A program made the position numbers and the translations under genes. 30,935 nucleotides of DNA from a virus (Duplodnaviria > Heunggongvirae > Uroviricota > Caudoviricetes). The stretch spans positions 1 through 30,935 of IMG/VR virus record IMGVR_UViG_2690316316_000011; one strand, 5' to 3'. Below, one piece after another: positions 3,769-20,806 of this stretch; the first letter of the stretch is position 1, and every line of letters starts with the position of its first letter. Under the pieces are notes generated by a model that saw only the letters and a program-made list of their open reading frames with translations, searched no databases and was not told the DNA's origin.

Positions 3769-4416
3769 TCAATAGCCAGTGAAACTTGCTAAAGCAATTT
3801 GAAATCCGCTGTTCCCCATTGCCTGGCGATATGTCTTCTGGTTTTTATTCACATACTGTAAAGAGAATGAAGTACTGCTATTCCTTTTAATCAAAATGCC
3901 AGAATAACCAACTGTACCGCCATCATCGGATATGTTGCCCGGACACTGACTAATGCATATCCACGGATCGGCAAAACTCGTTGTAAGCGTCAAGGCAGTA
4001 CCGAGATCATGAGAGGATGGCACGGTAAGAAAACCCTGAATACGTGGCATTGTACCCGCACTGGCAGCAGACCAGATCAATGTTCCAGCACTGTTATACA
4101 CATCAAGGTAGCCTGATGTAAGAGCCGTAGTATTACTGGAGAGCATGAACCGCCCTGAACCTGCCTCGAACATTGCCGAGCCGGGAAAGCAGTACTTTCC
4201 ATTCGTCTGTAGCTGAAACCAGCGTAGCCCCGTATTCGGGAAGAAATTTAGGGGCAAATACCCCAGCGTACTCCCGTTACCAAAGGCACTGTTAATGAGA
4301 TAGTAACCTGTGTCTGAGAGTGTACCCATTGCTTTAACGGAACTCATTACGACCGATTTATTATCGGAATCAATCGTAAGAGCACCTGCTGAATTGTAAA
4401 CCTGAAAACCTGACAT
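3769..4416 (-). CDS. tail-tip associated protein, unknown function
   Basis: 215-aa ORF directly downstream of the J-like gene; Gly/Ser/Thr-rich; N-terminal motif GFQVYNSAGALTIDSD resembles the N-terminus of the neighbouring 101-aa ORF. Confidence 0.35.
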   Translation of the reverse strand: MSGFQVYNSAGALTIDSDNKSVVMSSVKAMGTLSDTGYYLINSAFGNGSTLGYLPLNFFPNTGLRWFQLQTNGKYCFPGSAMFEAGSGRFMLSSNTTALTSGYLDVYNSAGTLIWSAASAGTMPRIQGFLTVPSSHDLGTALTLTTSFADPWICISQCPGNISDDGGTVGYSGILIKRNSSTSFSLQYVNKNQKTYRQAMGNSGFQIALASFTGY

Positions 4417-9494: not shown

Positions 9495-10067
9495 GTGATA
9501 CCTCGAATATCTTCTTTCTTTATTTATTTGAAAACCTCTTTTCTTAATTTTTTTAGGAGGCTTGATTGGCAGGCCGCATCGGTTATAGTTGCTATGATTT
9601 TGTTTGGAGCACAAATAGGCTATAACACATATGATAAATGGAAGGAAAGTTCAGATAATGTTTTTAAAATGCGTGTAATATTATTAAGCGAAATAAACAA
9701 CAACCTTATGGCTCTTGCAACTGGCGGCGATGATTCTCAGGTATTAGGTACTTACGAAATTTGTATTCCTTTACCTGCCGGAGATACAGAAGCCATTAAA
9801 AGAGTAGCAACCGCCGTTTCCTATTTGCATGATGAAGTATATTTTTCACAATTAGAAAAGTTAGCATCACTTCCTAAAAAAGAAGTAGATGCGATAGTGA
9901 AAAGTTATTATTCATTATCAAGATTGCGTACCCTTTCTACGCAACTTGACTTCAATATCAACTATTCACCGTCTAAGGTAAAATTAATGAGAGATGAATA
10001 TTACAATCTTTATAGCTTAACAAGCTCTCTATCTAACTATTTGACTCATCACACTGAAAATCCCTAA
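9495..10067 (+). CDS. opposite-strand moron ORF, hypothetical membrane protein
   Basis: 190-aa ORF antisense to the tail operon, filling a 585-bp gap between tape measure and minor tail genes; N-terminal hydrophobic helix (AASVIVAMILFGAQIGY); AT-rich, no AGTACT copies. True start may be an internal Met. Confidence 0.3.
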   Translation: MIPRISSFFIYLKTSFLNFFRRLDWQAASVIVAMILFGAQIGYNTYDKWKESSDNVFKMRVILLSEINNNLMALATGGDDSQVLGTYEICIPLPAGDTEAIKRVATAVSYLHDEVYFSQLEKLASLPKKEVDAIVKSYYSLSRLRTLSTQLDFNINYSPSKVKLMRDEYYNLYSLTSSLSNYLTHHTENP

Positions 10068-13031: not shown

Positions 13032-13535
13032 TTATGGAGTTTCAGTAATCAGTCCTGAATCAATAGCTGCACCATCTACAGCAAGCGTGAAGGTCTTAGT
13101 TACGACTTCATCCTTGTCACCACCAATAGTCGTACTCGACACGAAACAGGTGTAGATAACGTAGAATCCTGTTGTTTTAGTGGCATCTTCAAAATAGCTG
13201 AGTTTGATCTGACAACGTTTTTGATCATCGGCAAGCTGTTCTAACTTTTGGTGTACTTCATTATCTGGCAAGTAATTAACTGCAAGACTAATATCAGGAA
13301 TTGATTTAGTACCTAATAATTTCCGGTCATACGCGTTATTAAATGTTTTTACAGTAATTACGGTACTCTCAAAGCCTGAAGTTGTGAAGGTATTCACTTC
13401 GGGGATTACTTCAAAATCCGTTGTAATAGTACTGCCAGCACTTGTACCTACTTCGACCTGTAGGTTAGCACCAGCAAAAATATCCATAGCCATATTTATA
13501 TCCTTATAAGAATTGAATTGACGGGATAAATCCAT
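13032..13535 (-). CDS. major tail (tube) protein candidate
   Basis: 167-aa ORF immediately upstream of G/GT, the lambda gpV position; paralogous to the N-terminal ~150 aa of the 911-aa fibre (shared NYLPD..HQ.L and GDKD.VVTKT motifs). Likely true start at internal MAMDIF. Confidence 0.5.
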   Translation of the reverse strand: MDLSRQFNSYKDINMAMDIFAGANLQVEVGTSAGSTITTDFEVIPEVNTFTTSGFESTVITVKTFNNAYDRKLLGTKSIPDISLAVNYLPDNEVHQKLEQLADDQKRCQIKLSYFEDATKTTGFYVIYTCFVSSTTIGGDKDEVVTKTFTLAVDGAAIDSGLITETP

Positions 13536-13550
13536 TTATCCCTTTTGTAT

Positions 13551-16286
13551 TTATTTATTATCGAGTAGTGATTGTACAAGTACTTTCAATGTTTCAATTT
13601 CGGCTGCAAGTTCATCATTCTTTATTTTTAGTGCCTTGATAGCAGCAAGACCATCTAACATCATGGGTGTTTCATCGAGATGATAGAGATCACCGACTTC
13701 TTTAACGTATTGTGGATCAATATTCATAATCTGCTGTGAAACCACACCACGTCTTGGTGTTTCATCCTCATCAGATTTAAAAGTGAAGTTCACAAAATCC
13801 ATTTGCGATATATTATTGAGTGCAATATTAAGATCTAATTTTTCACCAATATTCTTTGCTCTTTCATCGGAAACTGAAGAAGTTGTTATTTGTGCCCACG
13901 CTCCCCATGCGGCAACATTCGTTTGTATCCGAGAATAGATACGATTCGACGTATCATAAAAACGTTGTTGATACCATTGATTGGTTGTTCCCATTGCTGA
14001 AGTGCCGCCGACATTTAAACCCTGAGTTGCCTGTGTAAATAATGAGCCATAGATATTTCCGCTTAATGGACCATTTGACCACGTACCGCCGACAGCTTGC
14101 CACCCCTGATTAACAACATTCATATCAGTACCAGTAGCTGCTTGTGATGAGCCAGTAGGTGCAAGTCCTCCAGCAAGGCCAATGGGTGTGCCATAGCCCG
14201 AAATTGGCGGTAGATACGCCCAGCCCTGCCCAGCGACTGACCCAATCCTATCTCTGAAATAGAAAATAACCCCCTTACCGGCTTCCTGGCTATTCTCAAT
14301 TCTTACCCGGCGACCTACCACATCATCACCACCAGTAACATCTAAGTTGATTGCGGGCCAATCATCCCGCGATACCGTTAGTTGATTGCTGATCACTTGA
14401 GGTTGATTGAACGTATTTGATCTGTCCAATGTCGGTACTTCATGCCATTGCCATTTACCACTGTTCTGTGATGGCTGCACACCTCCAGCAAAGACACGAT
14501 TACCATCAGGCTGAACAAGCATTCCAGAATAAGACGGTGAACCATCATACTGTGATACATAACCAGCACCGCCGAATGATGAAGGGGAATCAATAGTTGC
14601 TGTAGTCGTTCGAATGAACCCTTTCGGTGCATCCTTCATATCGGCTACATGGCGAGGATTGATTCCAAGGCCAACTTCTGAAAGCGTATTGTCGATTGAA
14701 TAAATTTGCTGACCATTTAATGTCACAGAACTACCTACGGTAATAGATCCACTGAAGGTCTGCCCAGCACTCCATGTATTGGCAGTGGAAAGCAATGGTA
14801 CAGTACTTCCAGATGTACCAATGTTTGTTGTCGCTGCCGTGCCAAGTCCTAAAGCAGTACGTGCTGCCGCTGCCGTCGTAGCCCCTGTACCGCCACTCGT
14901 TAAGGGTAATGGCGTAGAGAGGGATAACGACGATAAAGCTGCCGTACCGCCAGTGATAGCGGCTGCGTTAGCATTCTGCGTTGCGAGGCTACCTAACCCA
15001 AGATTAGTACGTGCTGTTTCTGTATTCGCAATGTCCGATAGATTCGATGCGATTTTTAGCTGTGCGTCATTAGTAATAGAACCAAGACCAATATCATCTT
15101 TCGAAAGTACTATATCGGCAGAGAGCTCATGACCATTTATCACAATCGTTTTTGGTACAAAATCAGTATTAACATGAGTAGTTAGTAAATTAATTGAAGC
15201 ATTAACACCATCGATCGTGCTATCGACTTCACCCTTTGAGTAAACATCCAGATTGTTACGGGCTTCTTCAATATCAGTCAGATCAGAAAGGTTATGACTG
15301 ATCGCCAATTGTGCATCGTCAGTAACGGAACCAAGACCAACATCATCTTTCGAAAGTACTACATCATCGCTGAGTACATGCCCGTTAATCGTTCTGGTAT
15401 CCGGTACACTGCCTGTGTCTGAACTCGTTAGTACCACATCATCAGAAAGTACATGGCCATTAACGGTACGTTCTACAGGAACAGCACCAACATCGCCAGG
15501 AGTCAGAACAATGTCAGTACTCAGTTGCTTGCCGTTTACTGTTCGAGTGAGAGGAACATAGCGTGCGTCCATCTGTGTAGCGGTATAGATACGAGTCCAC
15601 GCTGTAGTGGCATTCTTCGCATAGATACTTAGCGTTCCCGATTTCGTCATAGCAAGGGAACTGACAGACGAACCATCAACCAGACCAATCCCCATCATGT
15701 CGGCACCAGCAGGATTACCCGCCTGTGTTGACGGTACTTTGATAAAGCTGTTACCCGTAGGGATAGCCGGTGCGTATTGAGGAACATCCGTTGTGTTTGA
15801 ACCTACACCATAATCTCCCTGATAGACCGGAAGTAACGCCGTAATCGCCTGACTACGGGCAACAACATCAGTTGGGGTAAATTCATAGGTTTTGGTTACT
15901 ACGCTATCCTTATCCCCGGAGAGTTGAGTACTGGTAATCGCCCCGTTCACCATTGCATAAGTTAACTGGCTGCCCTCTTCCTGATAGGCAATGGTTAGCT
16001 GGAACACATCCTGATTTTCTGCTGCTTCATCCAGAAATTGATGTGTAGAATCATCAGGGAGGTAATTAACAACAATATCAACTGGATTAGCGGATTTCTC
16101 TGCAAGTAATTTACTGTTATATGTGCTGTTGTAGGTGTCGTACTGATTCACCTCTGATTCAATCTCCAGTACTGGAAATTCTGCCACTTCATTAATCTGG
16201 ACGTTGCCAATTCCCTGTGGTGATCTGTTCCCCGTATCGGGGTTATATGATAATGAAAGTCCATTACCTGTAAAAATATCTGCCAT
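13551..16286 (-). CDS. tail fibre with N-terminal tube-like domain and C-terminal intramolecular chaperone (peptidase S74-like) domain
   Basis: 911-aa ORF; N-terminal domain paralogous to the 167-aa neighbour; central repeats (RTVNGKQLSTDIVLT / RTVNGHVLSDDVVLT / RTINGHVLSDDVVLS / KTIVINGHELSADIVLS; GLGSVTDDAQL / GLGSITNDAQL); C-terminal 106 aa begin SDERAKNIGEKLDLN, matching the auto-cleavage motif of endosialidase / T5 pb1-type chaperone domains. Confidence 0.7.
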   Translation of the reverse strand: MADIFTGNGLSLSYNPDTGNRSPQGIGNVQINEVAEFPVLEIESEVNQYDTYNSTYNSKLLAEKSANPVDIVVNYLPDDSTHQFLDEAAENQDVFQLTIAYQEEGSQLTYAMVNGAITSTQLSGDKDSVVTKTYEFTPTDVVARSQAITALLPVYQGDYGVGSNTTDVPQYAPAIPTGNSFIKVPSTQAGNPAGADMMGIGLVDGSSVSSLAMTKSGTLSIYAKNATTAWTRIYTATQMDARYVPLTRTVNGKQLSTDIVLTPGDVGAVPVERTVNGHVLSDDVVLTSSDTGSVPDTRTINGHVLSDDVVLSKDDVGLGSVTDDAQLAISHNLSDLTDIEEARNNLDVYSKGEVDSTIDGVNASINLLTTHVNTDFVPKTIVINGHELSADIVLSKDDIGLGSITNDAQLKIASNLSDIANTETARTNLGLGSLATQNANAAAITGGTAALSSLSLSTPLPLTSGGTGATTAAAARTALGLGTAATTNIGTSGSTVPLLSTANTWSAGQTFSGSITVGSSVTLNGQQIYSIDNTLSEVGLGINPRHVADMKDAPKGFIRTTTATIDSPSSFGGAGYVSQYDGSPSYSGMLVQPDGNRVFAGGVQPSQNSGKWQWHEVPTLDRSNTFNQPQVISNQLTVSRDDWPAINLDVTGGDDVVGRRVRIENSQEAGKGVIFYFRDRIGSVAGQGWAYLPPISGYGTPIGLAGGLAPTGSSQAATGTDMNVVNQGWQAVGGTWSNGPLSGNIYGSLFTQATQGLNVGGTSAMGTTNQWYQQRFYDTSNRIYSRIQTNVAAWGAWAQITTSSVSDERAKNIGEKLDLNIALNNISQMDFVNFTFKSDEDETPRRGVVSQQIMNIDPQYVKEVGDLYHLDETPMMLDGLAAIKALKIKNDELAAEIETLKVLVQSLLDNK

Positions 16287-17029: not shown

Positions 17030-20806
<3,777 letters not shown>

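What the first reader, a model, noticed from the sequence alone, without database searches (positions are those of the whole stretch)
13554..13871. C-terminal autoproteolytic intramolecular chaperone domain on the fibre
The last 106 residues begin ...TSSVS|DERAKNIGEKLDLN..., matching the conserved cleavage-site context (Ser followed by D-E-R-x-K-N) of the chaperone domains of endosialidase tailspikes and T5 L-shaped fibres (peptidase S74). The mature fibre should therefore end near residue 805 and the domain be released after trimerisation.
Basis: partly seen in the sequence, partly recalled or inferred. Interest (0 to 1): 0.45.

Follow-up and report, generated by a model that had tools for sequence, protein, structure and literature searches.

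The report
Self-cleaving chaperone domain on prophage fibre

Summary
Confirmed and ordinary. The gene lies on the minus strand (13551..16286, 911 aa). Residues 806-911 (nt 13871..13554) match Pfam PF13884 Peptidase_S74 over the whole 58-position profile, at 32.6 bits against a cutoff of 22. The nucleophile Ser806 and the general base Lys811 have the i/i+5 spacing seen in endoNF (S911/K916), T5 pb1 (S1264/K1269) and MyRF (S587/K592). In 69 homologous C-terminal domains Lys is invariant and the Ser position is Ser in 60 and Cys in 9. A profile of these domains finds solved S74 domains: DT57C LtfA at 1e-23, MyRF at 6e-15 and S16 gp37 at 3e-13. An AlphaFold model (pLDDT 89.5) superposes on the MyRF ICA domain with TM 0.78 and rmsd 1.6 Å.

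One correction. By the T5 precedent the scissile bond precedes the serine, so it is V805|S806, not S806|D807.

The exact protein is already in NCBI (E. coli, "tail fiber domain-containing protein", PF13884 precomputed).

A side observation has more interest. Residues 1-150 are a full-length paralogue (36% identity) of the adjacent tail-tube protein. This anchor occurs in about 100 protein clusters, and only one weak match to it was found among 50,697 sequenced phage records.

The parts
13551..16286 (-). Whole fibre gene, 911 aa plus stop; an AAGGA Shine-Dalgarno lies 8 nt upstream of the ATG
   Evidence: PHROG tail-fibre families 1980, 5481, 6578 and others; 100% identical NCBI E. coli protein P0001
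13554..13871 (-). Peptidase S74 / C-terminal intramolecular chaperone domain, residues 806-911 (predicted released fragment, 11.98 kDa)
   Evidence: PF13884, 32.6 bits, profile 1-58/58; profile against PDB; AF2 pLDDT 89.5 and Foldseek TM 0.78 to 7dc3; mass
13869..13874 (-). Predicted scissile bond: codons Val805 (13874-13872) and Ser806 (13871-13869); Ser806 is the predicted nucleophile
   Evidence: Coordinates. The position is Ser in 60 and Cys in 9 of 69 homologous domains. T5 precedent is Thr1263|Ser1264. The crystallised released chaperone 3gud begins with SDERHK
13854..13856 (-). Lys811 codon, predicted general base of the Ser-Lys dyad (i+5)
   Evidence: Lys in 69/69 homologous domains; equivalent to endoNF K916 and MyRF K592 and T5 K1269
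13560..13673 (-). C-terminal long helix, residues about 872-909, predicted to form the trimeric coiled coil that drives trimerisation
   Evidence: AF2 model helix at model positions 77-114 with pLDDT above 90; in MyRF the C-terminal triple coiled coil is the main driver of trimerisation (PMC8326128)
13872..14696 (-). Variable distal tip (residues 531-805), probably the receptor-binding part; contains the invariant WYQQRFYDT...R786..QTN motif just upstream of the cleavage site
   Evidence: Shared with only 16 of 120 best homologues; 48% identity to the HK578 tail fibre over residues 532-907; invariant columns; weak Foldseek hit to the R1 pyocin fibre 6cl5 from a low-confidence model
14697..15806 (-). 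Shaft (residues 161-530) with three 25-aa RT(V/I)NGxxLSxDxVL repeats and ARxNLGLG-type repeats
   Evidence: Repeats listed; shared with 120/120 homologues; PDB hits to fibre repeat regions 7z47, 9zd7 and 6ct8
15807..16286 (-). N-terminal tail-tube-protein-like domain (residues 1-160), paralogue of the next gene
   Evidence: 36% identity and E 1e-23 to the adjacent 167-aa TTP; phrog_158 'major tail protein' at E 5.7e-23; present in 119/120 homologues
13032..13535 (-). Adjacent tail tube protein gene. The more likely start is the ATG at 13493, giving 153 aa beginning MAMDIFAG, parallel to the fibre's MADIFTG
   Evidence: PF08813 Phage_tail_3; phrog_158; called as 153 aa in L001, L002 and L006; Shine-Dalgarno context

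Best explanation
Residues 806-911 are a peptidase-S74 C-terminal intramolecular chaperone (ICA) domain at the end of a prophage lateral tail fibre.

Inferred mechanism, by homology with endoNF, T5 pb1 and MyRF: three nascent chains are brought into register by the C-terminal helix (about 872-909), which forms a triple coiled coil. The alpha/beta body of the domain then templates folding of the upstream trimeric tip. Once the trimer is correctly folded, Ser806, activated by Lys811, attacks the Val805-Ser806 peptide bond. The 12-kDa domain, beginning with Ser806, dissociates. This leaves an 805-residue (84.2 kDa) mature fibre whose distal receptor-binding tip is unmasked.

What is shown here: domain identity, motif, conservation and fold. 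What is inferred: trimer dependence, the exact scissile bond, and release.
For: - Pfam PF13884 is matched above the gathering score over the full profile.
- S806 and K811 have i/i+5 spacing. In 69 non-identical homologous domains K811 is 69/69, D807 68/69, G847 69/69, and position 806 is Ser in 60 and Cys in 9.
- An HMM of the domain hits solved S74/ICA domains, with the Ser and Lys columns aligned in each: 8hqz_d DT57C LtfA 1.1e-23, 7dc3 MyRF 5.7e-15, 6f45 3.3e-13, 8jov 2.2e-12, 3gud 3.4e-5.
- The AF2 model has pLDDT 89.5 and shows helix, strands, a short hairpin and a long C-terminal helix.
- The top Foldseek PDB matches are MyRF ICA (TM 0.78, rmsd 1.6 Å), then 3gud and 3gw6, which are intramolecular chaperones.
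- In T5 pb1 the scissile bond is Thr1263|Ser1264, the S1264A mutant blocks cleavage, and only the cleaved protein blocks adsorption (PMC4690869).
- The S/K dyad is indispensable in MyRF and endoNF (PMC8326128).
- The protein context is that of a fibre inside a complete siphovirus morphogenesis module.
Against: - There is no experimental evidence for this protein.
- The domain is short (106 aa) and lacks the long beta-hairpin 'tentacles' of the endoNF and T5 chaperones, so how it contacts the tip is unknown.
- The residue before the Ser is Val, not Thr as in T5.
- Counterparts of the T5 trimer-sensing residues Arg1250 and Asp1239 could not be assigned. R775, D778 and R786 are invariant upstream, but their equivalence is untested, and the monomer model of tip plus domain was poor (pLDDT 65).
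Confidence: 0.86

Rival explanations
1. The S74-like domain is present but is not cleaved. It would stay on the virion fibre as a C-terminal trimerisation cap or coiled coil.
For: The domain is compact and has no long tentacles. The T5-type sensor residues are not identified.
Against: Both dyad residues are strictly retained here and across homologues. In T5 the uncleaved form cannot bind receptor. Every characterised domain with an intact Ser-Lys dyad self-cleaves.
Confidence: 0.07
2. Cleavage occurs, but after the serine (S806|D807), so the mature fibre would end in ...TSSVS.
For: [quoted passage not shown]
Against: T5 pb1 and K1F endoNF lose the Ser with the chaperone. The scissile bond is stated as Thr1263-Ser1264. 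The crystallised released chaperone 3gud starts with SDERHK.
Confidence: 0.06
3. The SDERAKN motif is a chance resemblance and the C-terminus is just a coiled-coil tail.
For: None beyond the shortness of the motif.
Against: Full-length Pfam profile match above threshold; profile-to-PDB hits down to 1e-23; fold match with TM 0.78.
Confidence: 0.01

Closest known systems
[quoted passage not shown]
   Same: An S74 domain at the extreme C-terminus of a siphovirus lateral fibre. It has a Ser-x4-Lys dyad and a C-terminal coiled coil. DT57C LtfA is the best solved-sequence match (E 1.1e-23). T5-like and Drexler/Dhillon-type coliphage fibres share 40-55% identity with residues about 530-911.
   Different: The T5 domain has 133 residues with long beta-hairpin tentacles, whereas this one has 106 residues with a short hairpin. 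DT57C has Gly where this domain has Asp807. The fibre's N-terminal attachment differs completely: T5 and DT57C thread into an LtfC collar, while this fibre starts with a tail-tube-protein paralogue.
K1F endosialidase endoNF C-terminal intramolecular chaperone domain (PDB 3GW6), the founding member of MEROPS/Pfam S74
   Same: Same family (PF13884). Ser911/Lys916 correspond to Ser806/Lys811. The mechanism is trimer-dependent autoproteolysis and release.
   Different: endoNF is a tailspike with sialidase activity and a larger chaperone domain. The Foldseek match is only partial (TMq about 0.54, high rmsd). No enzymatic domain was detected here.
Myelin regulatory factor (MyRF) ICA domain (PDB 7DC3)
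   Same: Closest fold match (TM 0.78, rmsd 1.6 Å, 24% identity), with similar compact size and the same Ser/Lys dyad.
   Different: It is a eukaryotic membrane-bound transcription factor, where cleavage liberates the N-terminal DNA-binding trimer. There is little contact with the upstream beta-helix.
Tail tube proteins with C-terminal extensions (SPP1 gp17.1*, lambda gpV Ig-like domain); from general knowledge, not tested here
   Same: A tail-tube-protein fold followed by an outward-facing extension, encoded next to or overlapping the plain TTP gene.
   Different: Those extensions are small Ig/FN3 domains on the same gene, made by frameshift or fusion. Here a separate paralogous gene carries a 760-residue trimeric fibre with a self-cleaving chaperone.

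Membership tests
Peptidase S74 / C-terminal intramolecular chaperone (PF13884) | Sequence match to the family profile above the curated threshold | tested here: met
   32.6 bits against a cutoff of 22, E 1e-7, profile 1-58/58 on residues 806-862. The same hit is precomputed for the identical database protein.
Peptidase S74 / C-terminal intramolecular chaperone (PF13884) | Nucleophile Ser at the first position of the domain | tested here: met
   S806 aligns to profile position 1 and to the Ser column of 8jov, 6f45, 3gud and 8hqz. The position is Ser in 60 and Cys in 9 of 69 homologues.
Peptidase S74 / C-terminal intramolecular chaperone (PF13884) | General-base Lys five residues after the Ser | tested here: met
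   K811 is invariant in 69/69 homologues. It is equivalent to K916 (endoNF), K592 (MyRF) and K1269 (T5).
Peptidase S74 / C-terminal intramolecular chaperone (PF13884) | Location at the extreme C-terminus of a trimeric fibre or spike | tested here: met
   Residues 806-911 of 911. The upstream part has fibre repeats and tail-fibre PHROG and PDB hits. Trimeric state is inferred, not shown.
Peptidase S74 / C-terminal intramolecular chaperone (PF13884) | Fold: alpha/beta body followed by a long C-terminal helix (triple coiled coil in the trimer) | tested here: met
   AF2 pLDDT 89.5. Foldseek top hits are 7dc3 (TM 0.78), 3gud and 3gw6.
Peptidase S74 / C-terminal intramolecular chaperone (PF13884) | Long beta-hairpin 'tentacle' embracing the upstream domain (endoNF/T5 subtype; not required for the family) | tested here: not met
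   Only a short hairpin at residues 861-870. Homologues carry 15-25-residue insertions at this point that this protein lacks. It resembles the compact MyRF type.
Peptidase S74 / C-terminal intramolecular chaperone (PF13884) | Upstream trimer-sensing Arg/Asp contributed by a neighbouring chain (T5 Arg1250/Asp1239) | tested here: inconclusive
   R775, D778 and R786 are invariant in 13-15 tip homologues. No reliable model or alignment to T5 was obtained (tip model pLDDT 65).
Peptidase S74 / C-terminal intramolecular chaperone (PF13884) | Trimer-dependent autoproteolysis and release of the domain; the domain is required for folding | not testable with these tools
   Needs expression, S806A and K811A mutants, and mass spectrometry.
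Siphovirus tail tube protein (Phage_tail_3 / phrog_158), for the N-terminal domain | Sequence homology to TTPs over the full TTP length | tested here: met
   36% identity over 134 residues to the adjacent TTP, E 1e-23; phrog_158 at E 5.7e-23. [quoted passage not shown]
Siphovirus tail tube protein (Phage_tail_3 / phrog_158), for the N-terminal domain | Assembly into hexameric rings of the tail tube | not testable with these tools
   Needs cryo-EM or virion proteomics with stoichiometry.

The most novel reading that the evidence does not exclude
The fibre carrying this S74 domain is mounted on the tail by a full-length tail-tube-protein paralogue fused to its N-terminus. It would therefore be built into, or form a dedicated ring of, the tail tube itself rather than docking on a baseplate or collar adaptor. 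Three neighbouring TTP-like domains of a hexameric ring would feed one trimeric fibre, and the S74 domain would supply the trimer register. This would be an undescribed attachment mode, conserved in roughly 100 protein clusters of Enterobacteriaceae prophages and essentially absent from sequenced isolated phages.
Probability: 0.3. Interest if true: 0.55.

Novelty: new member of a known kind. Interest (0 to 1): 0.17.

Why it matters
For the finding itself it matters little. S74 chaperone domains are common on enterobacterial phage fibres and are found by routine Pfam annotation. Knowing the processing site (V805|S806) is practically useful for expressing the mature receptor-binding fibre and for interpreting virion proteomics. 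The wider protein is more interesting. It defines a mosaic fibre family (constant TTP-like anchor and shaft, swappable tips, swappable S74 domains) in an Enterobacteriaceae prophage lineage that apparently has no studied representative.

Tried and rejected
- Megablast of the fibre region against 50,697 phage records and against complete E. coli genomes gave no match. The element is known only from draft assemblies, for example GCA_012600405.1.
- NCBIfam gave no hit for the fibre.
- Single-sequence phmmer against PDB gave only a marginal MyRF hit (E 0.046). A profile of homologues was needed.
- The AF2 monomer model of tip plus chaperone (residues 640-911) was poor (pLDDT 65, pTM 0.33). I therefore could not place R775, D778 or R786 relative to Ser806 or assign the tip fold. 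The Foldseek hit to R1 pyocin fibre 6cl5 (E 0.016) is only a hint.
- A second word-indexed homology search with residues 640-911 returned only 18 proteins, which limited alignment depth.
- Two literature searches for a TTP-fused fibre found nothing relevant. The K. pneumoniae prophage RBP paper does not describe it.
- I considered that the N-terminal domain could be a tail terminator rather than a TTP copy, and rejected this as the primary reading. It is 36% identical to the adjacent TTP over the TTP's full length.

Full report
**Observation.** The stretch 13554..13871 lies inside a 911-codon ORF on the minus strand (13551..16286). Translating it shows ...WAQITTSSVSDERAKNIGEKLDLN.... Ser806 is at 13871-13869 and Asp807 at 13868-13866, and the stretch covers exactly residues 806-911, 106 aa. 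The plus strand of the stretch is riddled with stops, so nothing else is encoded there.

**Identity of the domain.** Four independent tests agree.
- Pfam: PF13884 Peptidase_S74 ('chaperone of endosialidase') matches residues 806-862 over the complete 58-position profile, at 32.6 bits (gathering cutoff 22) and E 1e-7.
- Conservation: I extracted the homologous C-terminal domains from the 120 best database relatives, which gave 69 non-identical sequences. Lys811 is invariant (69/69), Asp807 is 68/69, Gly847 is 69/69, and position 806 is Ser in 60 and Cys in 9.
- Solved relatives: an HMM built from 16 diverse domains (alignment A1) finds DT57C LtfA (8hqz_d, 1.1e-23), MyRF ICA (7dc3, 5.7e-15), Salmonella phage S16 long-fibre gp37 (6f45, 3.3e-13), 8jov (2.2e-12) and the neck-appendage chaperone 3gud (3.4e-5). 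The Ser and Lys columns are aligned in each.
- Fold: AlphaFold2 on A1 gives a confident model (pLDDT 89.5) with a small alpha/beta body, a short hairpin and a long C-terminal helix. Foldseek against the PDB returns MyRF ICA first (TM 0.78, rmsd 1.6 Å), followed by the two founding 'intramolecular chaperone' entries 3gud and 3gw6.

**Mechanism (inferred by homology).**
- In T5 pb1 the chaperone is cut off at Thr1263|Ser1264.
- The S1264A mutant blocks that cut.
- Ser1264 is activated by Lys1269, and an Arg from a neighbouring chain makes cleavage depend on correct trimer formation.
- The serine leaves with the chaperone, and only the processed fibre competes for the receptor (PMC4690869).
- In MyRF and endoNF the equivalent pairs S587/K592 and S911/K916 are indispensable, and the C-terminal triple coiled coil drives trimerisation (PMC8326128).

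Mapping this onto the present protein gives the following sequence of events. The helix at about 872-909 trimerises and the domain templates the tip. Ser806/Lys811 then cleaves Val805|Ser806. An 11.98-kDa fragment is released and an 84.2-kDa mature fibre remains (masses). The released 3gud chaperone begins with SDERHK, which supports cleavage N-terminal to the Ser. The alternative S806|D807 is kept as a minor rival because of the phi29 model mentioned.

**Differences from the textbook examples.** The domain is compact. Where many homologues, and T5 and endoNF, carry a long beta-hairpin 'tentacle', this one has only VKEVGDLYHL (861-870), which explains why MyRF is the best structural match. I could not identify the trimer-sensing Arg/Asp. 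R775, D778 and R786 are invariant in the tip, but the monomer model of residues 640-911 was too poor to use (pLDDT 65).

**Context.** The window is a prophage. On the minus strand the gene order is:
- small and large terminase;
- a head-tail joining protein and a lambda-type portal;
- an S78 protease-HK97 capsid fusion;
- two small proteins;
- this fibre;
- a tail tube protein;
- two chaperone-sized ORFs;
- a 739-aa tape measure;
- a pb9-like distal tail protein and further tail-tip proteins;
- a 1067-aa gpJ-like tip protein;
- lysis genes.

An identical protein is deposited from E. coli drafts as 'tail fiber domain-containing protein' with PF13884 already assigned, and relatives are named 'pyocin knob domain-containing S74 family peptidase'. 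Residues 532-907 are 48% identical to the HK578 tail fibre and 40-55% identical to lateral fibres of many coliphages. The finding is therefore an ordinary, automatically annotatable member of a well-studied family.

**Modularity and the unusual N-terminus (outside the finding).**
- The protein is a mosaic. The anchor (1-160) is in 119/120 relatives, the shaft (160-530) in 120/120, the tip (530-805) in 16/120 and the S74 domain in 77/120.
- The anchor is a full-length paralogue of the adjacent tail tube protein: 36% identity, E 1e-23, and both hit phrog_158.
- The two genes even share the N-terminal sequence and Shine-Dalgarno context if the TTP starts at 13493 (MAMDIFAG against MADIFTG).
- The order fibre-TTP-chaperones-tape measure is conserved in distant relatives (L005 and L006).
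- An exhaustive phmmer search of 1.84 billion representative proteins finds only 139 clusters. About 100 of them are long proteins (560-1563 aa) with the domain at residue 1, and the remainder are mostly TTP-sized proteins of about 150 aa, plus some shorter fragments and intermediate-length proteins.
- Among 50,697 phage genome records only one weak match exists: DCP80, a 'hypothetical protein', 27% identity. It sits in a similar gene neighbourhood (protease-capsid fusion upstream, TTP downstream, though with an additional 745-aa ORF between the long protein and the TTP).
- I found no paper describing such an anchor.
- Whether it forms a dedicated tube ring or decorates the tube sporadically is unknown. 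This is the most novel reading the data leave open.

**Verdict.** Observation confirmed and interpretation supported, with a one-residue correction of the cleavage site. Novelty is low (a new member of a known kind) and so is interest. The N-terminal tail-tube-protein fusion and the natural Ser-to-Cys variants in relatives are the items worth a further look.

Noticed in passing
window 15807-16286 (-) and 13032-13535 (-): The fibre's first ~150 residues are a full-length paralogue (36% identity) of the adjacent tail tube protein. This anchor heads about 100 clusters of long fibre proteins in Enterobacteriaceae prophages and has only one weak match (Escherichia phage DCP80) among 50,697 sequenced phage records.
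   Followed up: partly
homologues P0059, P0060, P0061, P0066, P0068, P0078, P0092, P0095-P0098, P0114 (C-terminal ~130 residues): Twelve related fibres have Cys instead of the S74 nucleophile Ser (motif NCDIKLK), with the Lys retained. This may be a natural Cys-Lys variant of the autoproteolytic dyad.
   Followed up: no
window 13493-13535 (-): The tail tube protein ORF has two possible starts. The ATG at 13493 (153 aa, MAMDIFAG...) has the same AAGGA-N8 context and N-terminal sequence as the fibre gene, and it is the start called in related contigs. The 167-aa ORF start is probably too long.
   Followed up: partly
window 3769-4416 (-): A 215-aa protein downstream of the gpJ-like gene carries DUF8377 (PF28254). 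The same domain replaces the tip and S74 end in a fibre homologue of this family (P0014, 548 aa), which suggests a second or exchangeable receptor-binding module.
   Followed up: no
window 9495-10067 (+): A 190-aa gene is inserted on the opposite strand between the tape measure and distal tail protein genes (phrog_3829, unknown function). A relative has a different reverse-strand gene (DUF6216) at the same spot, so this looks like a moron insertion site.
   Followed up: no
window 17030-18826 (-): The prohead protease (S78) and HK97-type major capsid protein are fused in one 598-aa ORF, and this is conserved in relatives and in DCP80.
   Followed up: no
L004 (PQ671644.1 Escherichia phage DCP80, 2763-15530): A record classified as Straboviridae/Tevenvirinae (141 kb) carries a siphovirus-type module (protease-capsid fusion, TTP-like long protein, TTP) resembling this prophage. 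This may indicate a chimeric assembly or a misclassification.
   Followed up: no
window 13872-14400 (-) compared with P0004: Homologue P0004 (79% identity overall) is nearly identical from GGLAPTGSS (about residue 706) to the C-terminus but diverges sharply just upstream. This indicates a recent recombination breakpoint inside the tip.
   Followed up: no
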